This document shows, piece by piece, positions 6,914 to 61,576 of a stretch of 64,000 bases of DNA. Below the pieces are notes generated by a model. That model made no database searches, had not been told where the DNA came from, and saw only the letters and a program-made list of their open reading frames with translations. The position numbers and the translations under genes were made by a program. The stretch is from contig JAUIBQ010000002.1 in assembly GCA_030427445.1 (NCBI GenBank), positions 101-64,100 on the forward strand. Direction: 5' to 3'. How positions within the stretch are numbered: position 1 is the first letter of the stretch; the number at the start of each line of letters is the position of its first letter. Origin of the DNA: a bacterium. GTDB lineage: Bacteria; Patescibacteriota; Saccharimonadia; Saccharimonadales; SZUA-47.

Positions 6914-6916
6914 GAT

Positions 6917-6965: not shown

Positions 6966-6971
6966 CTACTC

Positions 6972-7040
6972 ATGAGAAGGGCAAGCCCCTCTCATCGCGC
7001 AGGGAACGAAATCAATTCGTTCATCTGGCTGCTCTCCCCT
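6972..7040 (+). ncRNA. Conserved structured element, copy A (homolog of 3191-3269), located between the two 49-bp direct repeats
   Basis: ATGAGAAGGGCAAGCCCCTCTCAT (11-bp stem) + GAACGAAATCAATTCGTTC (7-bp stem) + GGCTGCTCT; compensatory changes vs copy B. Confidence 0.4.
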
Positions 7041-7044
7041 TTTA

Positions 7045-10278: not shown

Positions 10279-10394
10279 AATGTCTCCTATTTTGGATACA
10301 AGTATACTCTTTAATCTGTAGAGTTTTGTTAATTTACCTACTTTAAATTAAAGAGAGTATTGATTTTTATTTAATTTTGTGATATTATATATGT

Positions 10395-10835: not shown

Positions 10836-10839
10836 ATTT

Positions 10840-31471: not shown

Positions 31472-31709
31472 TCCACTTATTTTAACACTTCTCATTGTGT
31501 CACTATTCTTGACATTTAAGGTGTTTTTTGCTATATTAAAGCGCAAGACTGATACATAAAAACTATAAAAACAAAATTATGAAGGAATTCAAACCACTAG
31601 TCTCAGATACAGAGCCAACAAACGTACTTGCGCCATACTCTTTGCAGTACGAAGCACTTATCGTCGAGCCTAAAGTTCAAAAGCATAAGAATTAATCTAC
31701 AACATAATA

Positions 31710-31738
31710 TTGACATTTTATTAATTATTTAGTATTAT
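31710..31738 (+). promoter_or_regulatory. Sigma70-type promoter TTGACA-17-TATTAT for gene at 31791
   Basis: TTGACAttttattaattatttagTATTAT. Confidence 0.5.
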
Positions 31739-31790
31739 AGTCGTATATTCTGTTATTAATTCGTAGCCAAAAGGAACAAGAATTAGAATT

Positions 31791-46914: not shown

Positions 46915-47343
46915 CTAGACGACGTTATCAACGCTGTTCGCTGTACCGAGTACGAATCGAACGATAACTTGCGCTAACGCAACTACTACAAGGCCGATAA
47001 CCGCATAAAGGATGGTGTTCTTAGCACCAGATACGCTGTCTGATGAACCTTGGGAAGTGATGTATTTCACGCCACCTACCATAATCATGACAACAGAAAT
47101 GATACCAATAATCCACGAGAATAGGTTAATCGCATCAATAACTAGTTGGTTAACATTGTTTCGACCTGCGTCAGTCGCTGTGCCACCGCTACAGGTAGCA
47201 TTAAGATTGAGCTGAGACCCTTTACAAAGTCCTTCTTCTGTATTGTTCTGAGCTACAGCAACTGTCACAGGCACAAGTGGTGCGCCGAAGGTAGCAAGGC
47301 TCAAAATCGCGGTCATCATAAATGTTTTAATTTTTTGGATCAT
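46915..47343 (-). CDS. T4SS pilin-like protein, paralog 1 (signal peptide + variable Cys-pair ectodomain + conserved two-helix C-terminal domain)
   Basis: C-terminal IIGIISVVMIMVGGVKYITSQGSSDSVSGAKNTILYAVIGLVVVALAQVIVRFVLG shared by 7 tandem ORFs; VirB2/TrbC-like topology. Confidence 0.6.
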   Translation of the reverse strand: MIQKIKTFMMTAILSLATFGAPLVPVTVAVAQNNTEEGLCKGSQLNLNATCSGGTATDAGRNNVNQLVIDAINLFSWIIGIISVVMIMVGGVKYITSQGSSDSVSGAKNTILYAVIGLVVVALAQVIVRFVLGTANSVDNVV

Positions 47344-47439
47344 TATTATTTTCTCCTTTTATTAGAAAATACCTACATTTTCATGTGTTTACGCACTTAA
47401 GTGTATCTGGTTTTATGAAAAAATTCTAGTGTTTTAGCT

Positions 47440-47886
47440 TCAAGAATTAGCAATGTCTGCAGTAGTGCCGAGTACAAAGCGTACTATCAGTTGTGCTAGT
47501 GCTACTACTACGAGGCCGATGATAGCGTAGAGAATGGTGTTTTTCGCTGCAGTGACATTGCCTGAATCACCCTGAGAAGTGATGTACTTCACACCACCAA
47601 CCATGATCATAACGACTGCGATAATGCCAATCACAAGAGAGAAAAGGTCTATTGCGGTCGCGATAAGTTCTGAAATTTGCTCTTCAGCTATACCAAAATC
47701 TGAACCACAGTCCACAGCGTCTTCGTCTATGTTCGCACCTCGACATAAATTTTCTTGAATGTCCTGCGCTCCGACTTGCGGTGAAAGAAACGGCACAAAT
47801 AGTAGTCCTGTGACCATTAGCACCACAGCCGGGAAGTGTACAATCTTTGATGCGAGAAGCGCGAGTGAATGTGATGAATTAAACAT
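47440..47886 (-). CDS. T4SS pilin-like protein, paralog 2
   Basis: VIGIIAVVMIMVGGVKYITSQGDSGNVTAAKNTILYAIIGLVVVALAQLIVRFVLG; Cys pair LCRGANIDEDAVDC. Confidence 0.6.
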   Translation of the reverse strand: MFNSSHSLALLASKIVHFPAVVLMVTGLLFVPFLSPQVGAQDIQENLCRGANIDEDAVDCGSDFGIAEEQISELIATAIDLFSLVIGIIAVVMIMVGGVKYITSQGDSGNVTAAKNTILYAIIGLVVVALAQLIVRFVLGTTADIANS

Positions 47887-47904
47887 ACTAACCTTTCAAT
47901 TACT

Positions 47905-48312
47905 TTATGCAAAGAATCCGAGGACGAAGCGAACAATGAGCTGTGCAAGTGCGACGACGACGATTCCGATTGCTGCGTATATGATAGCATTCTTTGCTTG
48001 AGAAACCTTCTGTGAGTCTCCTTGAGAGGTGATGTAGCGTAAGCCTGCCAGCATAATCATCAATACTGCGATAATGCCAGCGACAAAAGAAAGTAGGTTT
48101 AGTGCTGATTCAAGTCCATTATCAATAGTTACGTCGTCTGTGTCATCGGTGCATGAAGCATTATTGTCGATAACTCCAAGTGATTCACATGCAGCATCTG
48201 AAGAGTTATTTTGAGCATGTACCAGTTGCGCCGGAAAGAAAAGACTGAATAAAAAGACACCTGTGATAAGAAGCTTGCTAACTGAAGTTAATTTTCTCGT
48301 CATATCGTACAT
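47905..48312 (-). CDS. T4SS pilin-like protein, paralog 3
   Basis: VAGIIAVLMIMLAGLRYITSQGDSQKVSQAKNAIIYAAIGIVVVALAQLIVRFVLG; Cys pair ACESLGVIDNNASC. Confidence 0.6.
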   Translation of the reverse strand: MYDMTRKLTSVSKLLITGVFLFSLFFPAQLVHAQNNSSDAACESLGVIDNNASCTDDTDDVTIDNGLESALNLLSFVAGIIAVLMIMLAGLRYITSQGDSQKVSQAKNAIIYAAIGIVVVALAQLIVRFVLGFFA

Positions 48313-48322
48313 TATAAAACCC

Positions 48323-48727
48323 TTAGTTTATTAGCTCTCCAATAACAACTGAGACGATGGCTTGAGCAAACAGGACAATCACGATACCTATTACAGCATA
48401 TATCATGAGGTTTCTTGCACTGTTAAACTTCTGTGGATCGCCGTCAGACGTCATCATCTGGACACCACCAACAATAATTATAATAACTGCAATAATACCT
48501 GCCACGATTGAGAGGATATTGAAAACACTTCTAAATAAACCGTCCTCACCACTAACGGGGTCTTCTGTGCTCTGTAAATCTTGGCATATCGGTGAACTAG
48601 ATGAGTCATTTCGACACACTTCGTTGATAGCATTACTTTGTGCACCGACCAAGGTAGGCGATAAAGAAATCAGGATAACGAATAGCAAAGCCAGAGTCGA
48701 TAGAGATGTTTTTATGCTCGTTATCAT
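48323..48727 (-). CDS. T4SS pilin-like protein, paralog 4 (more divergent)
   Basis: VAGIIAVIIIIVGGVQMMTSDGDPQKFNSARNLMIYAVIGIVIVLFAQAIV; Cys pair VCRNDSSSSPIC. Confidence 0.55.
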   Translation of the reverse strand: MITSIKTSLSTLALLFVILISLSPTLVGAQSNAINEVCRNDSSSSPICQDLQSTEDPVSGEDGLFRSVFNILSIVAGIIAVIIIIVGGVQMMTSDGDPQKFNSARNLMIYAVIGIVIVLFAQAIVSVVIGELIN

Positions 48728-49014
48728 AGTGCCCCCGCAACAAATCTTATAATTGAAGTTGCAAGTGCAGCAATGATAATTCCGACTATTGCGTATATGA
48801 TTGTATTTCTTGCATTTTTTGTTTTCTGTGGATCACCTTGTGAAGTTATGAAATTAATGCCAGCAACAATAATAACTACAGTCGCAACAGCAACCACCAA
48901 GATAAATACCCACCCCATTATGGTGTCTAAGCCTGCTTCCTGATTTTCATTTTTAGGCAAACCAGTAAGGTCGTCTGGGTTGATATTAATCTGAGAAAGC
49001 TTGTGAAAATACAT
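48724..49014 (-). CDS. T4SS pilin-like protein, paralog 5 (core only; lacks signal peptide and Cys-containing variable domain)
   Basis: VAVATVVIIVAGINFITSQGDPQKTKNARNTIIYAIVGIIIAALATSIIRFVAG; overlaps paralog 4 start by 4 nt. Confidence 0.5.
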   Translation of the reverse strand: MYFHKLSQININPDDLTGLPKNENQEAGLDTIMGWVFILVVAVATVVIIVAGINFITSQGDPQKTKNARNTIIYAIVGIIIAALATSIIRFVAGAL

Positions 49015-49015
49015 A

Positions 49016-49468
49016 TTACCCTCCCAGAGTCCTTCCTACATATGCAACAATTTGTGATGCAATAAGCACTATAGCGAAACCAATAGCAGCGTTTATAACT
49101 GTTTGGCGCGCTTTTGTAGCGTTGTCAGGATTGCCTTGAGATGTAATAAACTTAAACGAACCCCAGAAAATCATAACTAATGCTACGAATGTTGACGCCT
49201 TTAATAACCCTTCAAGGATGGTGATGCCTATCACTAAAGAAGTATTGACTTGCTCTTCTTCGTCGCCGTCACCTAAAGAAGGCTGACAATCCCCCTCTTC
49301 ACTTTCTGGTAAATAGTTATACCATGCAGGTATAGTGAGAAAGCTGTCTTGACACCTCACCGGTAGAGCATGGGCTTTCTGGGGAGCGGCATTGCTAGCG
49401 ATAGCCAATGCACTAAAAATAACTATCAAACTAACTGTCATCTTTAAAAATATAGTCTGCAGCTTCAT
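49016..49468 (-). CDS. T4SS pilin-like protein, paralog 6
   Basis: FVALVMIFWGSFKFITSQGNPDNATKARQTVINAAIGFAIVLIASQIV; Cys pair RCQD..DCQP. Start set to ATG 49468 (signal peptide MKLQTIFLKMTVSLIVIFSALAIASNA) because the longer ORF-track version overlaps paralog 7. Confidence 0.5.
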   Translation of the reverse strand: MKLQTIFLKMTVSLIVIFSALAIASNAAPQKAHALPVRCQDSFLTIPAWYNYLPESEEGDCQPSLGDGDEEEQVNTSLVIGITILEGLLKASTFVALVMIFWGSFKFITSQGNPDNATKARQTVINAAIGFAIVLIASQIVAYVGRTLGG

Positions 49469-49508
49469 TACAAATATCATATACCATTTATTAGCCAAAG
49501 ACCAAAGC

Positions 49509-50057
49509 CTAGAGCACTCCTCCTGGCACGAGGAAATTAAGTAAACCATACCCAAACACGAATAGTGCTAGTGCAACCAGAGCCCAAACGATACGTTTTT
49601 TAGCTGCAGCAACCGCCGCCGGATTATCGCGAGCCGACATATATTGATATCCAGCAAACATGACTGACGCGACTATCGCCATAATGGCTAAGGCAGACAA
49701 AAAGTTAATCGCAATTACTAGATAGTTAATGATCGTACAATTGTCTTTACTAAGAGCTACACCATTACCTGGCTCACAGTTATTTGGATCTGAGGCGTCA
49801 AAACCACTTACACCTTCTGTTTCGCTAACACACGCTCCATCTATAGAGCTAGTCCCGATTTGGCACTGACAATACTCTGCTGTAACTGCTCTTCCAGCAA
49901 CTACTTCTGTTTCTGTAGTCCATGTACCACCAGACGCTTTGCATGCTTCTTCATCAGCAGAGACTGTGGGTGGTGCTACAAAAAACAGAAAAACACCTGT
50001 TGCTAGAATCGCGACTATGAGTGAGTTGATTATATAAATTTTTATTTGATTAAGCAT
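49509..50057 (-). CDS. T4SS pilin-like protein, paralog 7 (largest, Cys-rich ectodomain; first gene of the pilin operon)
   Basis: FLSALAIMAIVASVMFAGYQYMSARDNPAAVAAAKKRIVWALVALALFVFGYGLLNF; seven Cys in ectodomain. Start set to ATG 50057 (RBS aaagg). Confidence 0.5.
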   Translation of the reverse strand: MLNQIKIYIINSLIVAILATGVFLFFVAPPTVSADEEACKASGGTWTTETEVVAGRAVTAEYCQCQIGTSSIDGACVSETEGVSGFDASDPNNCEPGNGVALSKDNCTIINYLVIAINFLSALAIMAIVASVMFAGYQYMSARDNPAAVAAAKKRIVWALVALALFVFGYGLLNFLVPGGVL

Positions 50058-50160
50058 TTTATTACCTTTATATTTTATAGTATACAAACATTTAATACTA
50101 TGTACAAAAATAGTATTTGTGTACATAGTACTTACGTTTTTAATATCAATGGTTTATTGG

Positions 50161-50188: not shown

Positions 50189-50821
50189 TTGGGCAAGGCA
50201 TTTATAATCAAATTCATCACTATATCAGTAGTGCTAGCATTACTAGTATTCGTGGGCACTATAGTATATAGATTTTTTTTCGATAAGGTGATGATTAATG
50301 AAAATAGCCTTGTTGTTACATCAAACAACAACGTAGAGTACATGACTCCAGACAACTGGAATGAACTTTACACGGGATCTACTGACTTAACCGTCGCGTA
50401 CTCGCCTAAGGAAGAGGATAGTTTAGAAAGCGCAGATGATATCCTAGGTTTTAGAGTAGAAAATAAAGCACCGACAAATTTTAGTTATACCAATCTCACT
50501 TCAAATGAAAAACAAATTGCAGAGACAAACCTAATAAATGACTACACTGATCCTGATTTTTTTGAGTATATATGTTCTGATCCCAGCAATATTTCCGCTA
50601 CGAAAGATGTACAAACTCTGGAGAATTTTGATTTGTCGTTTAGTATTAGCATGGACTGCAACAGAGAGTCTGAAAATGGAGTTTTGCCAAGTAAAATAAA
50701 TGCTGTTGCAGGAATAAAAGCTGGGACTGAGTACATTTTGTTTTATAGTGTAAGCGAAAAAACATATAAGAATAACGAGGTAGTTCTGGCAAAGATACTA
50801 AATTCGCTTAGCTACTTATAG
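50189..50821 (+). CDS. Hypothetical membrane-anchored protein, first gene of T4SS operon (TTG start)
   Basis: RBS aaggggg 5 nt upstream of TTG; N-terminal TM FIIKFITISVVLALLVFVGTIVY. Confidence 0.4.
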   Translation: MGKAFIIKFITISVVLALLVFVGTIVYRFFFDKVMINENSLVVTSNNNVEYMTPDNWNELYTGSTDLTVAYSPKEEDSLESADDILGFRVENKAPTNFSYTNLTSNEKQIAETNLINDYTDPDFFEYICSDPSNISATKDVQTLENFDLSFSISMDCNRESENGVLPSKINAVAGIKAGTEYILFYSVSEKTYKNNEVVLAKILNSLSYL

Positions 50822-50878: not shown

Positions 50879-53800
50879 ATGCAAAGAAATAAAAGCAAAG
50901 CCATCATCTTAAATAAAATTCGAGCACAACAATTGTTTGTAGTTGCTTATTTCATGATACTACTTATAAACATGCTCGGTTTGTTTAACGTAGGTCAGGT
51001 TAGGGCTGCTCCTTTCTATGAAAACATACAGACAGACTACACAGTGTACAACCTTCTAGTGGGCTTTTCTTACAGTTGTGGTGTTGATGGAGGCGATGAC
51101 AGAAGGATGAGTCTCGACGACATGAATGATGTCTACGATAACGACGAAGGCAACGACAACGCAGGATATGACGGAAACAATTATGAGTCAGATCCTGGTA
51201 AGAGAATAAACTTGGGCTTATCTACAAGTGGTTTTGGTGTCATTGATGGTATGGCAAGTTGTGACGAGATAGCGACAGAAGCAGTCACCAGAATTATGGA
51301 TTATTATGAAATTGACAATGACAGGCCAACTGATGCAGATGAAGCAAAATCATACATAATTAACTTCTTATCAGTGAGCGCAGGTGACACCAAGGAAGAC
51401 ATGATTGAGTACATTGAAAGTCTTGAAGGTGATGGACTAAAAGACGTCCTGGGAATCAACAGCACTATAGAACTAAGAAGTAATGCGTGGCGCAATTTTG
51501 TAGATACCATTACTGAACCGATGTTTGAAGAAATTGGTCAGAGCTTAGTCGATAACGTAACTGAGATTGACCTCGCTAACTGGATCGCACCAGCCTTAAA
51601 CTACTGCTTAGACTGGTCCGACACAGCACCTCAAAATAACGACGATATACGAATTGATTTATCTAGTACGGCTGGACTATATGGGTTTACTCCGGTAGAT
51701 GGCTATAGCGAAAGTAGGATGAGTGAAGTATTTTCTTCTTTTGATAAAGGAAGCGACGGAAAACTATTTGCAGGAAAATCTTGGGCTAGTATCGCTGATG
51801 GAGAGTTTTATTTTCTGTTTAGAGATTATGCTCGTTACCCATCTGAAAATAGTGGCGCTTTTCATGACGCCTATGAGGCATTTATAGATACAACAACAGC
51901 ATATCTTAGTGGAGGGTGGAGTTTGGTAGTGGGTCCTGACGACTCTGAAGAAGGGTATTTTTATCCTTTCGGTTATTCAAGTGAACTATTCTTTGACGAT
52001 GTACCTAGTGCTCGTTCACATAATGAAGGCTTCCGAAGAGGCGGTTTACTATCTTGCCAAAATATTGAGGAAAATGTTAGCAAGTTTGACGATGGTATGG
52101 AGGGAAAAGGAGACGGTAGAAACATTCAGGCTAAAGCACCTACCGCAGGTACGGGTGTGCCCCAGAATACAACTGGCAATGGAGGCGAAGCTGTCGCTGC
52201 TCAACCAAGCTGTGAGTCTCAAGGAGGAGCATTTAGTTTTATCCTTTGTCCAGCACTGGAGGCTATGGGAGACGGGTTTGTCTGGTTCGATCAGAGAATC
52301 GAAGATGCTCTTGTGGTTAATACTTCATATATTACAAACGACGGGACTCGCGATGCATGGAACAATTTTAGAAATATTGCCTATATATTACTTATTCCGA
52401 TAATGCTCGTGATGGTTATTGGCACAGCATTGAATTTCAATTTCCTAGATGCTTACACAGTCAAGCGTGCTCTTCCACGCTTATTTGCAGCGGTAATCTT
52501 TATAACACTTTCCTACAGTATCTGCCTCTTGATGATTGAGGTCACCAATGTCATAGGTGCAGGCACTAGAGGTCTAATATCCTCACCATTTGGCGGAACA
52601 GAAGCGTTAAGTCTAGAAAATATATTTAACCCTCCTGGGGCAGGCGGTACAGCTTTATATGGGTTAGCAATATTTGGTGGTATCGGCATAGCTGCGCTGT
52701 CGGGTGTGACCATTGGCTCATTGTTTGTCACAGTTGCGCTGGGGGCATTGGCGCTTTTGATAGTTTTTGTACTTTTGTATCTTCGCGAACTACTTATCAC
52801 TTTACTTGTCATTCTCGCACCACTCGCAATTGTTGCATGGATTTTTCCTGGCAATGATAAACCTTGGAAGTTTTGGTGGCAGGCATTTTCAAAAATGCTG
52901 TACTTTTTCCCGGTGGTCATCGCAGTAATAACATTCGGTAAGGCTTTTGCTTCAATCGTAGATGTGGTTGCTGGTGAAGACGGAAACGTCATAACAACCA
53001 TGATAAAAATAGTTGCATATGTAGGCCCATACTTCTTTATTCCGAAACTCTTTACTATGGCGGGTGGTGCATTGGGTAATATAGCTGGTATGGTGAACGA
53101 CAGAAGTAAAGGTGTCTTTGACAGAGGGCGTAAGGCTCGCGAAGGAATGAAAGCAAACCAGAGACAACAAATTAAGGCTGGCGGTGGAGGAGTTTTTGGG
53201 GTCGGAAAGAATAGTAGAATCGGAAAAGGTTTTGGGTCTATGGGAGCGGGTGCATACGGTATAGGTAAGTCTCTTTCTGATAACGGTGTCGCTGGATTAA
53301 GTAGAGGAAATATCACAGCAGCACGACGAGCAAACGAAGCTATTCATGGTAAAAAGATGCTTGACGATGATCATGATATGGGTGTATGGGATGGAAATGA
53401 TACTGTTTCGGGTATCAGCTCTGATTTAATGACGGGTAATGTCACTGGTTTAGCTCTACAACTGTCGAGAGCTCATGGCTTAAGCGAGAGTGATGCCATG
53501 GCGGAGGCTCGAGGAATGGTATCACAGTTTAGAAGAAACTCAGGACAGGGACTTGAGAATGCATTTTCTCGTATTGGCGGTATGGAAGGTGCCGAACTAC
53601 GAACTGCTGTTGCACAAGTCCAAACAGCTAGAGGAAAGTACTCTGACGATATTTTATCAAGACATCTTGTTGAAAAAGCAATGGCAGGAGGAACTTACTA
53701 TAAAAACTCTGGTGAAGCTTGGCATGCAGCAGGTCTTGCAACAGAAGGCAACGAAAATGCTGTTGCCTCAATGAACGTGACGGGCAGAAAAGCTCTTATT

Positions 53801-54412
53801 GGTGCGGGACAAATTATAGATGGGGGTGCGGGATTTGGCACAACAAGAGGGGAGATGCTAACTGCTGCCTCTGCTGGAGGGGAGAGGAGTTTCGATGAAA
53901 TATCTCAGTCACAGCGCAGGTACGAAACTGCAGCAATGGAGTCAAAGTCTATGCAATCTCTCCTACATGAACAAATGAAGGCTGGCAACTACGACAAAGT
54001 TGCGAGCTTCTTGCGAACGAATATATCTGAAGCCTATGAGTCAGGCGATCAGAGACGTATTGAACAGGCTGTTGCTGTTGCAGAGCAGGCGCATGTGATA
54101 GCAAAAAACGCTAGTCCAGCAGCAGACAGAGCAGTGTCTGAAGTCATGGACATGCCAGTTTATGTAGGCATGTCGTCCGCTAATGCAAACAGCCCATTCA
54201 ATCGGGACCCTACGGGAAGACGCATATTGTCCGCTCAGGAACGTGATGCACCAACAGTAAGGCAAGAAACTCATCGTCTGGGTAGAGATTCTGGTACATA
54301 CCAAGACATTCAAAGACAATATACAGAGGCCGAATATCAAGGTCAATCTCAAATTATGGGAAGAACCCCTGATGTAGGAGCAAGTACACCAGGACCCACT
54401 GAAGGACTTTAA
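50879..54412 (+). CDS. Giant polytopic membrane protein, VirB6/TrbL-like channel component with large extracytoplasmic N- and C-terminal regions
   Basis: Signal/TM at N-terminus, ~450-aa acidic ectodomain, central block of >=6 TM helices, Gly-rich C-terminal ~400 aa. Confidence 0.45.
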   Translation: MQRNKSKAIILNKIRAQQLFVVAYFMILLINMLGLFNVGQVRAAPFYENIQTDYTVYNLLVGFSYSCGVDGGDDRRMSLDDMNDVYDNDEGNDNAGYDGNNYESDPGKRINLGLSTSGFGVIDGMASCDEIATEAVTRIMDYYEIDNDRPTDADEAKSYIINFLSVSAGDTKEDMIEYIESLEGDGLKDVLGINSTIELRSNAWRNFVDTITEPMFEEIGQSLVDNVTEIDLANWIAPALNYCLDWSDTAPQNNDDIRIDLSSTAGLYGFTPVDGYSESRMSEVFSSFDKGSDGKLFAGKSWASIADGEFYFLFRDYARYPSENSGAFHDAYEAFIDTTTAYLSGGWSLVVGPDDSEEGYFYPFGYSSELFFDDVPSARSHNEGFRRGGLLSCQNIEENVSKFDDGMEGKGDGRNIQAKAPTAGTGVPQNTTGNGGEAVAAQPSCESQGGAFSFILCPALEAMGDGFVWFDQRIEDALVVNTSYITNDGTRDAWNNFRNIAYILLIPIMLVMVIGTALNFNFLDAYTVKRALPRLFAAVIFITLSYSICLLMIEVTNVIGAGTRGLISSPFGGTEALSLENIFNPPGAGGTALYGLAIFGGIGIAALSGVTIGSLFVTVALGALALLIVFVLLYLRELLITLLVILAPLAIVAWIFPGNDKPWKFWWQAFSKMLYFFPVVIAVITFGKAFASIVDVVAGEDGNVITTMIKIVAYVGPYFFIPKLFTMAGGALGNIAGMVNDRSKGVFDRGRKAREGMKANQRQQIKAGGGGVFGVGKNSRIGKGFGSMGAGAYGIGKSLSDNGVAGLSRGNITAARRANEAIHGKKMLDDDHDMGVWDGNDTVSGISSDLMTGNVTGLALQLSRAHGLSESDAMAEARGMVSQFRRNSGQGLENAFSRIGGMEGAELRTAVAQVQTARGKYSDDILSRHLVEKAMAGGTYYKNSGEAWHAAGLATEGNENAVASMNVTGRKALIGAGQIIDGGAGFGTTRGEMLTAASAGGERSFDEISQSQRRYETAAMESKSMQSLLHEQMKAGNYDKVASFLRTNISEAYESGDQRRIEQAVAVAEQAHVIAKNASPAADRAVSEVMDMPVYVGMSSANANSPFNRDPTGRRILSAQERDAPTVRQETHRLGRDSGTYQDIQRQYTEAEYQGQSQIMGRTPDVGASTPGPTEGL

Positions 54413-54449: not shown

Positions 54450-55607
54450 ATGGCCGTTTATAAAGTACCACAAGATGTCGAGGCAGAGGACAAGTTTTTA
54501 GGTCCTTTGACGTTCAAGCAGTTTCTCTTTTTCGGAGGAGTGTTAATCTTTGGATACATCACATTTCTTACAGCAACTAAGGTGGTGTTTCTTGCTCCGG
54601 TTTTCGCTATCCCTACGCTCGTTTTTGCCGTGCTTGCGACACCCTGGAGCAAAGACCAGCCGACGGAAGTGTTCTTAGGTGCTCGCTTCCGGTTTTTCTT
54701 CAAACCACGCAAGCGTATCTGGGACCAGACAGGCATCAAAGACTTAGTCAAAATCACCGTGCCAAAACGTGAAGCTCATGTGTATTCAGACGGCCTCTCA
54801 CAAGGTGAGGTGAGAAAACGCTTTGGTGCGTTAGCAACGATGGTAGACAGCCGTGGCTGGGCTGTAAAGAGCGTTCCGGGACTTTCACAAGTCAACGTAG
54901 CAGAGCAGAGTGACCGACTTGTCGAAGCTCCTCAGCAAGCTCCAAGTCAAAACGAAGCGATTTTAGCGCAGACTGAAGATGTGCTTGATGAAGACACCGG
55001 TGTCGTCGGAAAAAGTCTCGACAACATGATCGCTCAGTCAGAGCAAAAACATAAAAGTGAAACTCTGAAAATGATTCAACAAGCCCGTCAGGGTGGTGGG
55101 GGAGATACGAGTGCACCTAGCTTAAGCCCAGCACAAAAAAATAACACTGCCAAACCTAAAGCTGACCAGAACTCTCAAGATTTCTGGTTTATGCATCAGC
55201 AAAACGGCCAGGGTGGGCAAGCAGCCCCAGACCCTTCGCTCGCAACATTTAGCAACTCAACTGTTGTGTCTCCTGGAAGCACCACTCAACAAACCACAAC
55301 TCAGTCTGTTAAAGACGACCCCGTAGATGAGCAAGCAGTGTTGGATAAAATCCACGAAAAAGAGCGTAGAGACGCACTGCAGACACATTCACATCATGGC
55401 AAAGTAGTAAACCCGGACGGCACTGTACCTCAACAAAACGAAAGCCAAACAACAGAAGAAAAAAAGGATAAGCAAAACGTGACTACTCCTGTTAATCCTG
55501 ATATACTGAACCTAGCATCTAACAGAGATTTGAACGTTGCTACGATCCAGAGGCAAGCGAATAAAAAAGACGACGGCCAAGACGAAGTCGTGATTTCGCT
55601 TCACTAG
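54450..55607 (+). CDS. PrgI-family (VirB3-like) T4SS protein with long low-complexity C-terminal extension
   Basis: N-terminus MAVYKVPQDVEAEDKFLGPLTFKQFLFFGGVLIFGYITFL + second TM matches PrgI family hallmark (VP.D...EDK...G.LT..Q + 2 TM). Confidence 0.55.
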   Translation: MAVYKVPQDVEAEDKFLGPLTFKQFLFFGGVLIFGYITFLTATKVVFLAPVFAIPTLVFAVLATPWSKDQPTEVFLGARFRFFFKPRKRIWDQTGIKDLVKITVPKREAHVYSDGLSQGEVRKRFGALATMVDSRGWAVKSVPGLSQVNVAEQSDRLVEAPQQAPSQNEAILAQTEDVLDEDTGVVGKSLDNMIAQSEQKHKSETLKMIQQARQGGGGDTSAPSLSPAQKNNTAKPKADQNSQDFWFMHQQNGQGGQAAPDPSLATFSNSTVVSPGSTTQQTTTQSVKDDPVDEQAVLDKIHEKERRDALQTHSHHGKVVNPDGTVPQQNESQTTEEKKDKQNVTTPVNPDILNLASNRDLNVATIQRQANKKDDGQDEVVISLH

Positions 55608-55677: not shown

Positions 55678-56484
55678 ATGCAGCCGCAAAACCAATATCC
55701 TAATCAACCTGCTGGCATGCCTGGAAACCCAGGTCAGCCTGTTGCTCAGTCGCCAAAAACCAACCCAAATAGCACACAAAACACGTTGCAGATTGCAGAA
55801 ATCCGTGACGGAATCGTCATCATGAATGACGGTAGTTTCCGAGCTGTAGTCGCGTGTCAGAGCATCAACTTTGACCTCATGAGTCCTGAAGAGCGTGAGG
55901 CTGTTGAGTACAGTTATCAAGGATTTTTAAACTCGCTTTATTTTCCAGTACAAATATTTGTCAGAAGTCAGAAAGTAGATATCCGACCATACATTGAAAA
56001 GTTGGACAAAATCCGCTCAGAGCATGACAACATGCTTTTAGCACTTTTAATGGAGGACTACATTGGCTTTATGTCTTCACTCGCACAAGAAACAAACATT
56101 ATGGATAAAAAATTCTATGTTGTCATCCCGTATTTCAAGTCAGTAGACGGTCAACAGCTAGTAGAGCAGAGTAAGGGCTTTTTCCAGAGTTTTATGGGTA
56201 AAAAAGAGGAAAAGGTTGTGATCAACGAGCAAGACCTTGAAAAAGGTAAGGCAGAGCTTAGGAATCGCATCCAGGCAATTATGGCCGGACTCCAGCAATG
56301 TGGAGTGCAGTCCGTACCTCTTGATACACAAGAATTGATTGAACTTTACTACGATGCGTATAACCCAGATACTGCGACACGCCAGCAGATTACACGATTT
56401 GACGGCATGCTCAACACTGACGTCATCGAAAAAGGGCAGGGCGATGCAGCTCAACCGCAACTAGATAAGGAATTGGGTAGTTAG
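55678..56484 (+). CDS. VirB4/TrbE N-terminal domain-like protein (separate ORF) with Pro/Gln-rich leader
   Basis: IAEIRDGIVIMNDGSFRAVVACQSINFDLMSPEEREAVEYSYQGFLNSL resembles the start of CagE/TrbE/VirB4 N-domain; stop TAG 2 nt before GTG of the ATPase ORF. Confidence 0.45.
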   Translation: MQPQNQYPNQPAGMPGNPGQPVAQSPKTNPNSTQNTLQIAEIRDGIVIMNDGSFRAVVACQSINFDLMSPEEREAVEYSYQGFLNSLYFPVQIFVRSQKVDIRPYIEKLDKIRSEHDNMLLALLMEDYIGFMSSLAQETNIMDKKFYVVIPYFKSVDGQQLVEQSKGFFQSFMGKKEEKVVINEQDLEKGKAELRNRIQAIMAGLQQCGVQSVPLDTQELIELYYDAYNPDTATRQQITRFDGMLNTDVIEKGQGDAAQPQLDKELGS

Positions 56485-56486
56485 TC

Positions 56487-58403
56487 GTGGGATTATTCGG
56501 AGGAAAACCAAAACTCGATCCAGTTGCTCAAGCACAGCTTCAGCAAGCCCAGGAGCAAATGGAGGTACAGGCAGCATTTCAAAAAGGCGTGACTGCACTT
56601 CGGGACTTCATCGCACCGGCAAGCCTAGAGTTTGAAAGTTCGATGTTTAAGATCGGCACGCGGCTCGCGCGCACCTATTTCGTGTACGGCTACCCTCGGC
56701 AAATTTATACAGGCTGGCTTTCTAGTATGATCAATCTCGATGAGGTGATCGATATTTCAATGTTTATCTACCCGGTTGAGAGTCAAGCAGTTCTCGAAAA
56801 CCTCCGTAAAAAAGTCGGTCAGCTCGAAGCAGGTATCCAAATCGACGCTGAAAAAGGTCGCGTGCGTGACCCACAAAAGCAAGCAGCTATCCAAGATGCT
56901 GAAGAGTTACGAGACAAGCTCCAGGTGGGCGAAGAGCGGTTTTTCCGCTTTGGTCTGTATTTCACTGTATACGCAAACAGTCCTGAGGAGATGGAGTTCG
57001 TTACGCACAAGGTTGAGAGTATGCTCGGTCAACAGCTTGTGTACTCAAAACCTGCAAGCGCACAACAAGAACAAGGTCTAAACTCGACAATCCCACAATT
57101 CACCGACCAGCTACAAATCCGCCGTAACATGAACACAGGAGCTATCAGCACGAGCTTCCCATTCACGAGCTCTGATCTATCTCAAGAAAACGGCATTCTC
57201 TACGGTATCAACATGCACAACTCAGGCCTTGTGATCTTTGACCGTTTCAGCCTTGAGAACGGCAACTCTGTTGTCTTCGCGAAGTCAGGCGCTGGTAAAA
57301 GCTTTACCGTGAAGCTCGAAGCGCTTCGAAGCATGATGTTTGGCACTGAAGTGTTTATTATCGACCCAGAAAACGAATACCAGAGAATGGCGGAAGCTGT
57401 AGGCGGCGCGTATGTACGACTAAGCCTAAACTCCACAACACGAATCAATCCGTTTGACTTGCCGCAAGTCGTAGACGGGGAAGAGGCAGACAACGCGCTG
57501 CGAAGCAACCTCATCACCCTCCACGGACTTCTTCGTCTCATGATGGGTGGTGCACAAGCGCAAATGGCAGGCCAACAAGGCGCAATGATGGCGCCAGCAC
57601 TCAGTCCAGTCGAAGAATCAGATCTTGACCAAGCTCTCATCGAAACCTACGCAAAAGTCGGGATTACAAATGACCCATTAACTCATAAATCTCAGCCGCC
57701 AACTATCGCTGATCTCTACGATACACTCCTCCACATGGGAGGCACCGGACCGCAGCTAGCGCAACGACTGCGAAAGTACACCACAGGTACATTTGCCGGT
57801 ATCTTTTCACAGCAAAGCAACGTAAATATCAACAACCCGTTGGTGGTATTTAATATTCGTGACCTTGAGGATGAGCTTCGACCAGTCGCAATGTACATTG
57901 TCCTAAACTACATCTGGAACAAAACAAAATCTGACCAAAAGAAACGTTTGCTTGTTGTTGATGAAGCGTGGCAACTAATGAAATACGAAGATTCGGCAAA
58001 CTTTATGTTCTCTCTTGCGAAGCGTGCTCGTAAATACAACCTTGGCATCACAACCATTACGCAAGACGTCGAAGACTTTATGGGCTCTCGTATGGGGCGT
58101 GCTATCGTCGCCAACTCTAGCATGCAGCTTCTACTAAAGCAGTCGGCATCGGCGGTTGATGTACTTAGTGACGTCTTTAAGCTGACGAGTGAGGAGAAGA
58201 AGCGTCTTAGTCAGTTCCCAGTGGGTCAAGGCCTGTTCTTTGCTGGTCAAAACCATGTGCACATCCAAATAGTTCCTAGCCAGACAGAGGCTTCTCTTAT
58301 CACGACCAATCCAGAACAGGTGAAGCAGCTCGAGCAGCAGCAACAAAATCAGCAAGTCGACCTTAATCAAACAGGATATAATGATACTGTGAATCTACGA
58401 TAG
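56487..58403 (+). CDS. virB4: VirB4/TrbE/PrgJ-family T4SS ATPase (C-terminal part)
   Basis: Walker A VFAKSGAGKSFTVK, Walker B RLLVVDEAWQLM, motif ITQDVEDF; GTG start. Confidence 0.8.
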   Translation: MGLFGGKPKLDPVAQAQLQQAQEQMEVQAAFQKGVTALRDFIAPASLEFESSMFKIGTRLARTYFVYGYPRQIYTGWLSSMINLDEVIDISMFIYPVESQAVLENLRKKVGQLEAGIQIDAEKGRVRDPQKQAAIQDAEELRDKLQVGEERFFRFGLYFTVYANSPEEMEFVTHKVESMLGQQLVYSKPASAQQEQGLNSTIPQFTDQLQIRRNMNTGAISTSFPFTSSDLSQENGILYGINMHNSGLVIFDRFSLENGNSVVFAKSGAGKSFTVKLEALRSMMFGTEVFIIDPENEYQRMAEAVGGAYVRLSLNSTTRINPFDLPQVVDGEEADNALRSNLITLHGLLRLMMGGAQAQMAGQQGAMMAPALSPVEESDLDQALIETYAKVGITNDPLTHKSQPPTIADLYDTLLHMGGTGPQLAQRLRKYTTGTFAGIFSQQSNVNINNPLVVFNIRDLEDELRPVAMYIVLNYIWNKTKSDQKKRLLVVDEAWQLMKYEDSANFMFSLAKRARKYNLGITTITQDVEDFMGSRMGRAIVANSSMQLLLKQSASAVDVLSDVFKLTSEEKKRLSQFPVGQGLFFAGQNHVHIQIVPSQTEASLITTNPEQVKQLEQQQQNQQVDLNQTGYNDTVNLR

Positions 58404-58430: not shown

Positions 58431-61400
58431 ATGTATCCAGGACCAGGTTCAGTTATAACACCAGGAGGGTCTAGTACAGGTCCTGATAATGACCCGAGAA
58501 ATCCAGTCGCTAAACCTTGGAGTGATGAAGAAATCGCTAAAGGCGTTCAACAACTAGAAGATCATGCAAATGATCCAAAAAACGCTACTAAAAATTCCCA
58601 GTCTGCGGCTAAGGGTGAATCAAACACCTCTCCGCATAAGGGGAATGAAAGTTCAGCTCTTGATGAAGAAAAAGGTAAGTTTAGGACTTCTTTAAGCGAC
58701 AAGCTTCGTCAGGATAATTCTTTAGTTGGCCTCGCAAAGCGACACAGAGCACGACTTGCTTTGGCCAGTGCAACTTTTGGAGTTGCTGGACTAATGGTTG
58801 GTGGTTTTATTGCTGCTCCAAGTTTTATACTGTCTCACATAAGCACCCTTATTACTGACAAGACAAGCGAGCTTCAAGTTAATAGTCAAGCAAAGTATCG
58901 CCGTTCGAAATTCGCTAGTTTCACTGACAGATTTACAATAGACGGCAGAAGATCTGGTGCGCTCATTGCAGAAATGAAGAAATTCGGCTATAAGATCGAC
59001 GTTAAAAATGGTACATTCCAAGCACCAGGTGGCTCATCAAAACCACTAGCGGAAGCTGGCGAAGAATTCTCAGAATTTATGGACCAACGCTACAAAATTT
59101 TTGGTGTACCGACACGTTCGCAGACATGGAAAACAAAACGTACTGATGCGCTTTTTAATAGGCATAATGTCGTGCGGTCATCTTCCGTGACATCTAAACC
59201 AGGCGATCTAGAAGACCCAGAGATACAGATGAACAAAACTCAGAATAATTCAATTAATGAGGGTAGCGAGATTGATACAAGCATAGATGAGTCTCCGGCA
59301 AAGAGAGATACTGACTCCGGGAATGAAAATATAGATAGCGATAATGAGAGCTATAATCAAGCTAATGATGAAGCGGCTGAAGCATTGGTACCAGAGGATA
59401 ATGTGTTTAGGCAAGCTGCTGATGATCTTGCCGATGGAGTAAGTATTAATGAACTTGGCGGGGTTGGACCTATCGGTGATGAGCTTGATCTTGGCTATGG
59501 CCCAAATCTCGTAAAAGCAGAGGTGAGAAGGAGTCTTCTTAGTCCCGGTGGGGCAGCTGCCGGAGCTGTTACCATTGCTAAGTCTGCACTTTTACCTGCA
59601 GATATAGCCGACAAAGCATGTACCGCAAATTCACGTCTCGATATGGCGGTAAAAGTGGCGAGAGCTGCTACAAGCGTCAAAATGATGCGCGCAGCTTTGG
59701 TGTTTGTAAGTGCAGATGATGGACAAAGAAGACAGGAAGCATCATTTGATTTAATGATGCAGATAGTTAAGCGAGTGATGTTGAGTGATAAAGCTATGGG
59801 AAATTTTGCTAATTCGGCAGGCTTTCAGTTTGCAAGTAATGGCTCTTTTAGTAGGTCAGCGCTGGAGAATCAGCCTTCTAAATTTAATACTTCTGGAAAG
59901 CTTTCTGCATTTTGGGGTGCCGTACGTAGTGCGACCGGAAAGATACCAGGATGTAGCGTATTGGGAAATACGGCATTTCAAATAGGTCTTGGGATTGGTG
60001 CGGTAGCATTGTCGATAGCGGTTCCAGGATCTGGCGCCGCTGCAGGCACAGGGGTTAAAACAGCACTACAAACTGCTGTACAGGGATTTTTTACAAAAAA
60101 AGCTCTGACTGGTATACTTGCGGGGCTGATAATTGATTACAGTTTTGAAGAAATACTGAACTTAACTACGTTATATGTGCAGAAACAACTCACTATGGCA
60201 ATCACAGGACAAGAGACTGGGGGCATGTATTCGAGTCTTTTATTCTCAGGAGCGGGAGTTCTTACTAAACAGAGATTCTTAAATGCTGGACAGGTACCCG
60301 CGACAGCCACACAATACGCACAAGCACGAGACATATTCCTAGCTGAGAAACGTGAAGAATCTAAAAATAAATCACTTGCTCAAAGATTATTTGATTTCTC
60401 TGATTATGACTCTCTCGCATACCAAACCACAGCCACACTTGCTTTGAATAGCGGCACACCTTCTGCTGCGATATCAAATTTCGGCACCAGTGTAGCGAGC
60501 CTGCCTTCATTAATGACAAATACCGTTACATCACTAACAACCGGCCGCGCATATGCTCAAGATTCTGATGAGCAATTAGCGTTCGACACAATTAGCATAA
60601 ACGGCACAGAATACGCGACAGATCCATCGGGTAATCTTCTCACGATCATGCGTGACGATATAAGCAGTATAGATGTTGATGAGAACCTTCAAGAATTAGA
60701 AGACGAAGGACATATAAGCAGTGAAGCTACAGGCTACGAACCAAAAAGTAGCGAGTTTACTACTTTTATGGAGTTATGTATAGACTCTGTCGATCAAATA
60801 AGCGCCATGGAAGAGGGAGAAGATTGTGCTGGCACAAAAACATTAACTAAGAAATTCTATGCGCATCTAGCATATTTAGACTCGATTGACTTCATAGATA
60901 GCTCACTGTTCTCGAACGAAATCAGTAGCTATGGCAGTGGCAGTAGTACACAACCAACTAACGCACCGAATGCATACTCAGTATCTGCGATTGAACCGGC
61001 GGAGGGATTGATACAAGGCACAAGTATCGAAGCACAGGACACAAGCAATATGGAATGCCCTATAAGTGACACCGTGCAAGACTTAGGCATAGAAACTGAG
61101 GCCTATGTAAAAGGAGTGAGGTACAGTGTTAGACTGTGCGCAGTACATGGTATTCGCATAAATGTCCTTATTGCTAAACAACTTGATGACATGTTAAATG
61201 AAATGGCTGACGAAGGCTATACCGTACGTGGAAGCGGTGGCTTTAGGGATCACGCAAGCCAAGTAGCAGGGTATGCTGGTGGCGCAGGGGCAGGGACGTT
61301 TGCAAAACCAGGATATTCAAATCACCAATTCGGACTGGCTATCGACTTCAGTTGTCAAGGACAAGGACAAAGTTACACAGCTGGTACGGGTAGATATCGA

Positions 61401-61568: not shown

Positions 61569-61576
61569 AGAACTTT

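What the first reader, a model, noticed from the sequence alone, without database searches (positions are those of the whole stretch)
50879..54412. 1177-aa VirB6-like polytopic protein with very large extracytoplasmic domains
The central hydrophobic block (~residues 480-760) resembles VirB6/TrbL multi-TM channel proteins. It is flanked by a ~450-aa acidic N-terminal region after a signal/TM segment and a ~400-aa Gly/Ala/Ser-rich C-terminal region. This size and domain layout are atypical for VirB6. It resembles the extended VirB6 homologs of obligate host-associated bacteria that expose surface domains.
Basis: inference. Interest (0 to 1): 0.55.

Follow-up and report, generated by a model that had tools for sequence, protein, structure and literature searches.

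The report
Extended VirB6-like subunit of Saccharibacteria T4SS
This 1177-residue membrane protein is a very divergent, enlarged relative of VirB6, the membrane platform of type IV secretion machines, in a tiny epibiotic Saccharibacterium. It belongs to a large family that was already recognised, and its outward-facing domain differs completely between species.

Summary
It has a signal peptide, a 400-aa acidic region, a 310-aa hydrophobic core and a 420-aa Gly/Ala/Ser-rich tail.

It sits in a chromosomal, monoderm-type T4SS locus: seven VirB2-like pilin genes, then this gene, PrgI/VirB3, TrsD, VirB4 and wall hydrolases. This is the position prgH (VirB6) holds in pCF10.

No Pfam, NCBIfam or PDB sequence profile recognises it. 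A confident AlphaFold model of the core (pLDDT 86) has R388 TrwI/VirB6 as its five best PDB matches (Foldseek probability 0.96-1.00, E 0.016-0.085, TM 0.34-0.44). A local profile match to the TrwI family exceeds reversed and shuffled controls.

The family has 8930 cluster representatives, nearly all from Saccharibacteria, with a median length near 980 aa, so the size is normal for this lineage.

- **N-terminal domain:** secreted, hypervariable (0 of 140 relatives detectable) and rich in paired cysteines.
- **C-terminal region:** a folded helical domain, tentatively cytoplasmic.

VirB6-like proteins of Patescibacteria were already reported, and one is essential in strain ML1. This is a new member of a known kind.

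The parts
50879..54412 (+). Whole gene: 1177-aa extended VirB6-like T4SS subunit
   Evidence: ORF. Family of 8930 representatives. Conserved synteny in 79 Saccharibacteria loci.
50879..51007 (+). Residues 1-43: signal peptide (K/R-rich n-region, hydrophobic residues 20-38, cleavage-type VRA|AP)
   Evidence: A43 is >=90% conserved. 131 of 138 full-length relatives have an N-terminal hydrophobic segment and 89 have AxA after it. Cleavage itself is inferred.
51008..52210 (+). Residues 44-444: acidic, Cys-containing, hypervariable ectodomain of unknown fold
   Evidence: D+E is 18%. No Pfam, NCBIfam, PHROGs or PDB match. BLASTP gives 0 of 140 relatives, and only 7% of N-domain pairs in the family are detectable. 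tblastn gives 0 of 79 loci. pLDDT is 30-45. Family N-domains carry 1.6 Cys per 100 aa, with an even number in 87%.
52211..53140 (+). Residues 445-754: conserved VirB6-like core. It begins with the invariant Cys pair C445/C457, followed by seven long helices, and contains the invariant R636, P648, W663 and W666.
   Evidence: Conservation. All family pairs are alignable, with median identity 47%. The AF2 core model has pLDDT 85.7 and pTM 0.80. Foldseek top 5 are TrwI/VirB6 chains. hhalign against the TrwI family scores 29.1 (P=0.0064), against 17.3+-2.6 for shuffled controls.
53141..54409 (+). Residues 755-1177: basic Gly-rich linker followed by an all-helical (solenoid-like) C-terminal domain, probably cytoplasmic
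   Evidence: AF2 pLDDT is 80-95 over residues 780-1090, all helices. The only fold hits are weak helical-repeat hits such as 14-3-3 and TPR at E about 5. 21% of family pairs are detectable. 98% of family C-domains lack Cys. The ML1 proteins of matching size and position have an ARM-repeat-like C-terminus (Wang 2023 Table S2).
46915..50126 (-). Context: seven tandem VirB2-like pilin paralogs (T4SS_pilin PF18895), transcribed divergently
   Evidence: The same array lies upstream in 61-66 of 79 related loci.
50189..50821 (+). Context: orphan 210-aa bitopic protein between the pilin array and the VirB6-like gene
   Evidence: No family or PDB match and no relative in 79 loci. GC is 0.34. A VirB8-like role is only a guess, based on the NTF2-like SEML1_0012 found nearby in the ML1 cluster, between its two large proteins.
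54450..55607 (+). Context: PrgI/VirB3-like protein (385 aa, long low-complexity tail)
   Evidence: Pfam PrgI E=3.1e-12. It follows the VirB6-like gene in 64 of 79 loci. pCF10 has the same prgH-prgI order.
55678..58403 (+). Context: TrsD-like protein (55678..56484) plus VirB4 ATPase of the CD1110 family (56487..58403)
   Evidence: NCBIfam TrsD E=2.2e-6 and conju_CD1110 E=6e-112. Pfam hits. Present in 56 of 79 loci.
58431..63109 (+). Context: two cell-wall hydrolases (1045 aa with a VanY domain; 510 aa with glucosaminidase plus C39_2/CHAP), the VirB1-type function

Best explanation
The gene encodes the VirB6-type membrane subunit of the chromosomal, monoderm-type (MPF_FATA-like) type IV secretion system of a Saccharibacterium (Patescibacteria/CPR).

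Shown here: a 310-aa core with about seven long, mostly hydrophobic helices is conserved across Saccharibacteria. Its closest solved structure is R388 TrwI/VirB6. The gene sits exactly where prgH (VirB6) sits in pCF10: immediately upstream of prgI/virB3, virB4 and the wall hydrolase genes, and here also next to seven VirB2-like pilin genes.

Inferred by analogy with R388. The core oligomerises, probably as a pentamer, at the cytoplasmic membrane above the PrgI-TrsD/VirB4 ATPase complex. It recruits membrane-embedded VirB2-like pilins and serves as the base from which the pilus or conduit grows.

Two lineage-typical additions flank the core. The first is a signal-peptide-exported, disulfide-containing ectodomain on the outward-facing N-terminus. 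It differs in every species and most plausibly contacts the cell wall or the host surface. The second is a roughly 400-aa helical-repeat C-terminal domain, tentatively cytoplasmic. It could dock the ATPases or substrates in a system with no coupling protein nearby.
For: Context. T4SS_pilin x7, PrgI, TrsD, VirB4 (E=6e-112) and hydrolases flank the gene. The order pilins / this gene / PrgI / TrsD / VirB4 recurs in most of 79 Saccharibacteria loci. pCF10 has prgH-prgI-prgJ(VirB4)-prgK in the same order, and PrgH is a Pfam TrbL member.

Structure. The core-only AF2 model has pLDDT 85.7 and pTM 0.80. Foldseek against 350,542 PDB chains gives five TrwI/VirB6 chains as ranks 1-5. They have E 0.016-0.085, probability 0.96-1.00 and TM (target-normalised) 0.34-0.44, with 277-288 aligned columns covering nearly the whole of both proteins. 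Four more VirB6 chains appear in the top 26. The best non-VirB6 hit has probability 0.33. The full-length model also ranks VirB6 chains first.

Sequence. hhalign of the core profile against the TrwI-family profile scores 29.1 (P=0.0064), aligning APLAILAWIFPGNDKxWKxW with GPLFIxALxWQPTxRFFxxW. Reversed controls score 18-19. Forty block-shuffled controls score 17.3+-2.6 (max 22.8), with 0 of 40 reaching 29.1. The bona fide pair PrgH family versus TrwI family scores only 15.8 (P=0.34) with equally narrow profiles, so the test is insensitive rather than negative. The relaxed alignment superposes [FY]LR-x10-APL of this family on FLRGIQLYMIKALAPL of PrgH.

Literature. VirB6 homologues occur in Patescibacteria, mostly next to virB4, and the one detected in Ca. 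Southlakia epibionticum ML1 is essential (PMC12102498). In ML1, two roughly 1000-aa proteins lie between PrgI and the pilins. Their best predicted-structure matches are a 'TrbL/VirB6' protein and a 'Type IV secretion system protein', and both have ARM-like C-termini (Wang 2023 Table S2). The R388 VirB6 has seven long helices, forms a pentamer and acts as a VirB2 recruitment and assembly platform (PMC9259494).

Topology. A signal peptide is conserved. N-domain cysteines are even in number in 87% of family members. K/R clusters lie on alternate loops and after the last hydrophobic helix.
Against: No curated sequence model recognises the protein. Pfam TrbL has no hit for the query whole or in three pieces, and hits 2 of 45 relatives with best E=0.025. 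NCBIfam gives nothing. The family profile finds no PDB chain, TrwI included, at E<=10.

Foldseek E-values do not reach 1e-3 and TM-scores are below 0.5. All-helical membrane bundles can resemble each other by convergence. hhalign against the PrgH family is at noise level (P=0.22).

Oligomeric state, pilin binding, and the roles and even the compartment of the C-domain are inferred, not shown. The precomputed Pfam tag PF19590 on this protein could not be identified or reproduced.
Confidence: 0.75

Rival explanations
1. A lineage-specific T4SS membrane subunit that is analogous, not homologous, to VirB6. On this reading it is a Saccharibacteria invention that occupies the VirB6 slot, and its helical bundle resembles TrwI only by convergence.
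For: No Pfam, NCBIfam or PDB sequence-profile hit. Foldseek E is only 0.016-0.085 and TM is 0.34-0.44. hhalign probability is 5.9% against TrwI and at noise level against PrgH.
Against: VirB6 chains are the only PDB proteins with high Foldseek probability, and they align over the whole core in the same helix order. The local profile match exceeds reversed and shuffled controls, falls on the conserved helix-Pro-Trp region, and shows the same R-x10-APL spacing as PrgH. The gene has the same slot as prgH. Known members PrgH and TrwI are even less similar to each other in the same test.
Confidence: 0.12
2. A VirB6 core with added functions. The variable ectodomain would act as a pilus-tip or host-recognition module, taking the place of the missing VirB5. 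The C-terminal solenoid would be a substrate or ATPase receptor, taking the place of the missing coupling protein.
For: No VirB5, T4CP or relaxase is recognised in the window. The N-domain is exported, carries paired cysteines and is hypervariable, while the core is 47% identical across the family. In R388 the VirB5 pentamer sits on the VirB6 pentamer. The C-domain is a folded helical repeat.
Against: This is pure inference. There is no structural model for the N-domain (pLDDT 30-45). No similarity to VirB5 or T4CP domains was found. A T4CP homologue exists elsewhere in ML1, although it is not essential. The C-domain compartment is unresolved.
Confidence: 0.15
3. A transporter permease unrelated to secretion. 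KEGG assigns K01992 (ABC-2 permease) to the ML1 proteins in the corresponding position, SEML1_0011 and SEML1_0013.
For: Polytopic hydrophobic core. The K01992 label for SEML1_0011 and SEML1_0013 is in Wang 2023 Table S1.
Against: No ABC-2 or any transporter Pfam or NCBIfam match. No ABC ATPase in the operon. The nearest ABC pair (42366..44449, MacB-type) lies 6 kb away, beyond a tRNA and the pilin array. In one search no hit outside the VirB6 chains exceeds Foldseek probability 0.33. In one search the transporters listed have probability <=0.03. Synteny with T4SS genes is strict.
Confidence: 0.02

Closest known systems
TrwI/VirB6 of plasmid R388 (PDB 7O3V, 8RT9, 8RTD; Pfam TrbL PF04610)
   Same: It is the best structural match for the core. 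About 280 aligned columns run in the same helix order, and both have about seven long, mostly hydrophobic helices. Both have an outward-facing N-terminus followed by two helices with a basic loop between them. There is a local profile match at the helix-Pro...Trp region. Both have a basic Gly/Ala-rich segment after the last hydrophobic helix. Both are encoded in a cluster that also holds the virB2, virB3 and virB4 genes.
   Different: R388 TrwI is 342 aa with no signal peptide and no large flanking domains. It belongs to a diderm MPF_T system with VirB5 and VirB7-11. Identity in the structural alignment is 13-19%. Pfam TrbL does not score this protein.
PrgH of Enterococcus plasmid pCF10 (MPF_FATA VirB6)
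   Same: Identical gene slot: prgH-prgI-prgJ(VirB4, CD1110 family)-prgK(hydrolase). Both belong to monoderm systems. In the relaxed hhalign alignment the [FY]LR-x10-APL motif has the same spacing.
   Different: PrgH is 266 aa and a Pfam TrbL member (E=1e-6). The profile-profile score against this family is at noise level. pCF10 has no VirB2-like pilins.
SEML1_0011 / SEML1_0013 of Ca. Southlakia epibionticum ML1 (Wang et al. 2023) and the Patescibacteria VirB6 set of Quinonero-Coronel et al. 2025
   Same: Same phylum and the same locus type (pilin array, large polytopic proteins, PrgI, TrsD, VirB4). They are about 1000-1090 aa. Their best predicted-structure matches are proteins named TrbL/VirB6 and 'T4SS protein', and both have ARM-like C-termini. 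Both are essential in Tn-seq, SEML1_0011 at all time points.
   Different: ML1 has two such genes with an NTF2-like gene between them. This window has one gene preceded by an orphan 210-aa gene. Tandem pairs occur in only 3 of 79 loci.
Extended VirB6 proteins (Rickettsiales RvhB6/VirB6 paralogs; MPF_FA proteins of 700-900 aa such as Tn916 Orf15)
   Same: A VirB6-type hydrophobic core plus large hydrophilic domains. They occur in obligately host-associated bacteria, and gene duplication occurs in some genomes.
   Different: Their extensions are described as central or C-proximal, and partly unstructured. Here there is also a signal-peptide-exported, hypervariable N-terminal ectodomain, and the C-terminal extension is predicted to be a folded solenoid. 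No sequence relationship of the extensions was tested.

Membership tests
VirB6/TrbL (Pfam PF04610) | Scores above the Pfam TrbL gathering threshold | tested here: not met
   No hit for the whole protein or for three pieces at E<=10. Only 2 of 45 relatives hit, with best E=0.025. PrgH (E=1e-6) and TrwI (E=5e-50) do hit.
VirB6/TrbL (Pfam PF04610) | Core of about 300 aa made of five or more long, mostly hydrophobic alpha-helices | tested here: met
   The AF2 core has long helices at 488-517, 525-571, 592-606, 609-645, 661-697, 703-728 and 746-766. Core length is 297-333 aa in 141 relatives.
VirB6/TrbL (Pfam PF04610) | Closest solved structure is a VirB6, aligned over the whole core | tested here: met
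   Foldseek ranks 1-5 are TrwI/VirB6 chains, with probability 0.96-1.00, E 0.016-0.085 and 277-288 aligned columns. The next family has probability 0.33. Caveat: TM is 0.34-0.44 and no hit reaches E<=1e-3.
VirB6/TrbL (Pfam PF04610) | Profile-level sequence similarity to bona fide members, including the conserved helix-Pro...Trp region | tested here: inconclusive
   Against the TrwI family: score 29.1, P=0.0064, probability 5.9%. This is above reversed controls (18-19) and shuffled controls (17.3+-2.6, 0 of 40). Against the PrgH family: P=0.22. The positive control PrgH against TrwI gives P=0.34.
VirB6/TrbL (Pfam PF04610) | Encoded in a T4SS cluster next to virB3/virB4 | tested here: met
   PrgI begins 38 nt downstream, followed by TrsD and VirB4. 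The arrangement is conserved in 56-64 of 79 loci. pCF10 has the same order.
VirB6/TrbL (Pfam PF04610) | Pentameric assembly that binds VirB2 (and VirB5) at the inner membrane | not testable with these tools
   No multimer prediction or model coordinates were available. This is known for R388 only.
Extended VirB6 subfamily | VirB6 core plus one or more large hydrophilic domains | tested here: met
   N-domain about 400 aa and C-domain about 420 aa around a 310-aa core. The definition is taken from PMC12857230.
Extended VirB6 subfamily | Extensions related in sequence or fold to those of Rickettsiales or MPF_FA proteins | not tested
   No reference sequences of RvhB6, TcpH or Orf15 were fetched. 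No Pfam domain is shared.
Saccharibacteria/Patescibacteria VirB6-like family (SEML1_0011/0013 type) | Conserved core (SCExxGG...CP, RNIAY..LIPIMLVMVIGTALGF, YTVKRALPRL, APLAILxWIFPGNDKLWKLWW) and a locus with the pilin array, PrgI, TrsD and VirB4 | tested here: met
   Invariant C445, C457, R498, Y526, P533, R636, P648, W663 and W666. 8930 representatives. 79 loci, nearly all Ca. Saccharibacteria/Saccharimonadales. Synteny.
Saccharibacteria/Patescibacteria VirB6-like family (SEML1_0011/0013 type) | Direct sequence similarity to the ML1 proteins shown essential by Tn-seq | not tested
Only position, size and domain calls could be compared.
ABC-2 type permease (KEGG K01992, the label given to the ML1 proteins SEML1_0011/0013) | ABC-2 membrane domain and a partner ABC ATPase in the operon | tested here: not met
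   No transporter family at E<=10. The operon partners are T4SS genes. Foldseek gives no transporter with probability above 0.03.

The most novel reading that the evidence does not exclude
The Saccharibacterial VirB6-like protein may be a three-in-one T4SS subunit. Its species-specific, disulfide-bonded N-terminal ectodomain would sit on the VirB6 pentamer where VirB5 sits in diderm systems. There it would act as the host-recognition or pilus-tip module that sets which host bacterium the epibiont can exploit. Its C-terminal solenoid would replace the coupling protein as the ATPase or substrate receptor. Ectodomain hypervariability would then record an arms race with hosts.
Probability: 0.15. 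Interest if true: 0.7.

Novelty: new member of a known kind. Interest (0 to 1): 0.35.

Why it matters
The T4SS of Saccharibacteria is described as the first T4SS shown to be essential for the survival of the bacterium that carries it (PMC12857230). What it transports, and how it contacts the host bacterium, are unknown. This gene adds nothing categorically new, because VirB6-like proteins of Patescibacteria have been reported.

The analysis does define a family-wide architecture that the papers read here do not describe. It consists of a signal peptide, a hypervariable Cys-paired ectodomain, a strongly conserved 310-aa VirB6-like core and a folded helical C-domain. The analysis also shows that standard profile libraries miss the whole family.

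This gives concrete experimental handles. The conserved core motifs can be used for annotation. The ectodomain is a candidate determinant of host specificity. The C-domain is a candidate docking site in a system with no adjacent coupling protein.

Tried and rejected
- **Curated libraries.** Pfam, NCBIfam and PHROGs scans of the whole protein and its three parts found nothing.
- **PDB sequence searches.** Searches with the protein and with a 45-sequence family profile gave only noise.
- **Word-indexed homologue search.** The exhaustive search was needed.
- **Family profile against single PrgH.** hhalign gave no signal. Against a PrgH-family profile it was at noise level.
- **Precomputed tag PF19590.** The tag on this protein could not be reproduced by hmmscan at E<=10 or found in the literature. 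I do not use it as evidence.
- **ABC-2 permease idea (KEGG label of the ML1 proteins).** Rejected.
- **Second paralogue in the window.** None found.
- **Extra genes in other loci.** Genes between the VirB6-like gene and PrgI, or before it (for example L007 9995..12034 and 6141..7157), are soluble, poorly conserved and unrelated to this protein. The long N-domain here is therefore not a fusion with them.
- **Cys content as a compartment marker for the C-domain.** 98% of family C-domains are Cys-free. However, 34% of long ORFs in these loci are Cys-free too, and so is the cytoplasmic VirB4 of this window. The test does not decide the compartment.
- **Low GC at 50.1-51.0 kb.** This belongs mainly to the orphan 210-aa gene, not to the ectodomain.
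- **Contig look-up.** The exact-match look-up for the protein failed.

Full report
**1. Observation**

A single ORF of 1177 aa runs from 50879 to 54412 on the + strand.
- Residues 1-43 form an N-terminal K/R-rich, hydrophobic signal-type segment ending in VRA|AP.
- Residues 46-480 are acidic (D+E 18.4%).
- Residues about 497-730 form a hydrophobic block.
- Residues 771-1177 are rich in Gly, Ala and Ser (about 35% combined).

The gene is real. An exhaustive phmmer scan of 1.84 billion cluster representatives found 8930 relatives at E<=1e-3 and 2634 at E<=1e-30.

**2. Genomic setting**

The window is chromosomal DNA of a small-genome bacterium. It carries sigma-70, primase, ArgRS, ValRS, GroEL, Mur ligase and PGI.

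Around the gene lies a type IV secretion locus:
- seven tandem T4SS_pilin (VirB2-like) genes on the - strand, 46915..50126
- an orphan 210-aa bitopic protein
- the 1177-aa gene
- a PrgI/VirB3-like protein (E=3e-12)
- a TrsD-like protein
- a VirB4 of the CD1110 family (E=6e-112)
- two wall hydrolases

No coupling protein or relaxase is recognisable among the large ORFs of the window.

A degenerate-pattern scan of one genome per species returned 79 loci encoding relatives, almost all labelled Candidatus Saccharibacteria or Saccharimonadales. In these loci the order pilin array (divergent) / this gene / PrgI / TrsD / VirB4 is conserved. Pilins are present in 61-66 of 79 loci, PrgI in 64 and TrsD plus VirB4 in 56. 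Many of the missing cases are contig ends.

This is the locus type described for Patescibacteria by Quinonero-Coronel et al. 2025 (PMC12102498). It was shown essential for epibiotic growth of Ca. Southlakia epibionticum ML1 by Wang et al. 2023.

**3. Is it VirB6?**

Sequence libraries say no. Pfam TrbL/VirB6 does not score the protein, whole or in pieces. It scores only 2 of 45 relatives, with best E=0.025. NCBIfam gives nothing. A family profile finds no PDB chain.

Three independent lines nevertheless point to VirB6.

(i) Position. In pCF10 the order is prgH (VirB6, a Pfam TrbL member) - prgI - prgJ (VirB4, CD1110 family) - prgK (hydrolase). This is the same order as here.

(ii) Structure.
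- The full-length AF2 model is confident for residues 445-770 and 780-1090 but not for 37-440.
- The core-only model built with 75 sequences has pLDDT 85.7 and pTM 0.80.
- Foldseek of the core against 350,542 PDB chains puts five TrwI/VirB6 chains of the R388 T4SS at ranks 1-5. They have E 0.016-0.085, probability 0.96-1.00 and TM 0.34-0.44, and their 277-288 aligned columns span essentially both proteins.
- Four further VirB6 chains appear in the top 26. The best unrelated hit has probability 0.33.
- The numbers are modest. This may be partly because the solved VirB6 is in its assembled pentameric conformation.

(iii) Profile-profile comparison.
- The core profile against a TrwI-family profile gives score 29.1 and P=0.0064 over the segment APLAILAWIFPGNDKxWKxW / GPLFIxALxWQPTxRFFxxW.
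- Reversed-sequence controls give 18-19. Forty block-shuffled controls give 17.3+-2.6 (max 22.8).
- With equally narrow profiles, the two bona fide members PrgH and TrwI score only 15.8 against each other. The method is therefore insensitive here, not contradictory.
- The relaxed alignment also superposes the family's invariant R636-x10-A-P648-L on PrgH FLRGIQLYMIKALAPL.

Published structure-based annotation agrees. In ML1 two proteins of 998 and 1088 aa lie between PrgI and the pilins. Their best predicted-structure matches are a 'Type IV secretion system protein' and a 'TrbL/VirB6' protein, and both have ARM-like C-termini.

I conclude with about 0.75 confidence that the core is a highly divergent VirB6 homologue. 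The main rival is a convergent, lineage-specific subunit in the same slot (about 0.12).

**4. Architecture of the family**

I used 141 aligned relatives.

| Region | Median length (aa) | Range (aa) | This protein (aa) |
|---|---|---|---|
| N-domain | 277 | 136-493 | 444 |
| Core | 310 | 297-333 | 310 |
| C-domain | 387 | 206-542 | 423 |
| Total | 980 | not computed | 1177 |

- This protein is at the 98th percentile for both N-domain length and total length. Large size is the rule in this lineage. Only the long N-domain is unusual.
- Conservation is very uneven. Every core pair is alignable, with median identity 47%. C-domains are detectable in 21% of pairs and N-domains in 7%.
- This protein's N-domain matches none of 140 relatives and none of 79 loci.
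- Its closest relative in the searched libraries is 60% identical over residues 425-819 but unrelated before that.
- N-termini with signal-peptide features are conserved in 131 of 138 full-length relatives.
- N-domains always contain cysteine (1.6 per 100 aa), with an even number in 87% of sequences. C445 and C457 at the start of the core are invariant. This pattern fits a secreted, disulfide-bonded ectodomain.
- Three of 79 loci carry two tandem paralogues, as ML1 does. This window has one copy.

**5. Topology**

The signal peptide puts the N-domain outside the cell. Family-averaged hydropathy and charge fit seven membrane spans:
- 500-520
- 535-556
- 591-610
- 612-634
- 637-656
- 673-695
- 705-730

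K/R clusters lie on the loops at 521-534 and 657-672 and after the last span (about 9 K/R in 741-765). This gives an N-out, C-in topology with a cytoplasmic C-domain.

There is a caveat. In the R388 structure only the first two of the five hydrophobic VirB6 helices cross the membrane, and the rest form the periplasmic cone (PMC9259494; PMC12857230). Hydropathy-based counts are therefore unreliable for this fold, and an extracytoplasmic C-domain is not excluded.

Cysteine content does not settle the question. 98% of family C-domains are Cys-free, but so are 34% of long ORFs in these loci and the cytoplasmic VirB4 of this window. I rate a cytoplasmic C-domain at roughly 60%.

**6. Mechanism**

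The mechanism is inferred. By analogy with R388, a VirB6 pentamer is anchored in the membrane, recruits VirB2 through its first helix, and is the base on which the pilus grows.

Applied here, the conserved core would oligomerise above the PrgI-TrsD/VirB4 complex. It would act as the assembly platform for the VirB2-like pilins encoded next door. Such pilins are, among monoderm T4SSs, reported only from Patescibacteria.

The N-terminal ectodomain is attached to the outward-facing N-terminus of the VirB6 fold. It would lie at the cell surface or cell wall. Its hypervariability suggests contact with variable partners, such as the host surface.

The C-terminal solenoid could dock ATPases or substrates. 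None of these steps was tested here.

**7. Novelty and verdict**

Its proposed profile test fails, however. The size is typical for the lineage, and only the N-terminal domain is clearly extracytoplasmic.

VirB6-like proteins of Patescibacteria, and their essentiality, are already published. This is therefore a new member of a known kind.

The family-wide tripartite architecture and the extreme ectodomain variability are not described in the papers I read. They are a modest addition. Interest is 0.35.

Noticed in passing
46915..50126 (- strand): There are seven tandem, sequence-divergent T4SS_pilin (VirB2-like) paralogues. The one nearest the VirB6-like gene (49509..50126, 205 aa) carries a Cys-rich N-terminal extension of about 100 aa before the pilin domain.
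   Followed up: partly
54450..55607 (+): The PrgI/VirB3-like protein is 385 aa, against 117 aa for pCF10 PrgI. The PrgI domain covers residues 5-90, and the rest is a long Q/T/S/N/P-rich, probably disordered tail.
   Followed up: no
55678..56484 and 56487..58403 (+): VirB4 looks split, because a 268-aa protein resembling the VirB4 N-terminus (TrsD-like) precedes the 638-aa ATPase in another reading frame. The same pair occurs in 56 of 79 related loci and is described in the literature, so it is a genuine two-gene arrangement and not a frameshift.
   Followed up: yes
50189..50821 (+): An orphan 210-aa bitopic protein lies here, and the surrounding 50.1-51.0 kb has GC about 0.34 against 0.43-0.46 nearby. 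It has no relatives in 79 related loci and no Pfam, NCBIfam, PHROGs or PDB match. It precedes the VirB6-like gene; in ML1 an NTF2-like (VirB8-like) gene, SEML1_0012, lies between the two large proteins of the same cluster.
   Followed up: partly
58431..61568 (+): In this 1045-aa protein only the last 130 aa (VanY D-Ala-D-Ala carboxypeptidase domain) are recognised, and the first 900 aa are unassigned. A 510-aa protein with glucosaminidase plus C39_2/CHAP domains follows at 61577..63109.
   Followed up: no
about 30000..32000: The GC skew changes sign from negative to positive and the coding strand switches here. This is consistent with a replication origin about 19 kb from the T4SS locus, and Patescibacteria T4SS loci are reported to lie near the origin. 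No dnaA was seen among the ORFs scanned.
   Followed up: no
L031 2567..8334, L035 and L033 (related loci): Three of 79 Saccharibacteria loci carry two tandem VirB6-like paralogues (1026 aa plus 878 aa in L031). This is reminiscent of the virB6 duplications of Rickettsiales and of the two large genes in strain ML1.
   Followed up: partly
L007 6141..7157 and 9995..12034 (related locus): In 39 of 62 loci, extra lineage-specific genes sit between the VirB6-like gene and PrgI. The L007 example, and another extra gene upstream of its VirB6-like gene, are soluble and poorly conserved, so the spaces flanking the conserved core genes are hotspots of gene turnover.
   Followed up: partly
31791..33569 (+): This 592-aa protein has only EF-hand motifs as weak matches (residues about 428-450). 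It lies right at the strand-switch point.
   Followed up: no
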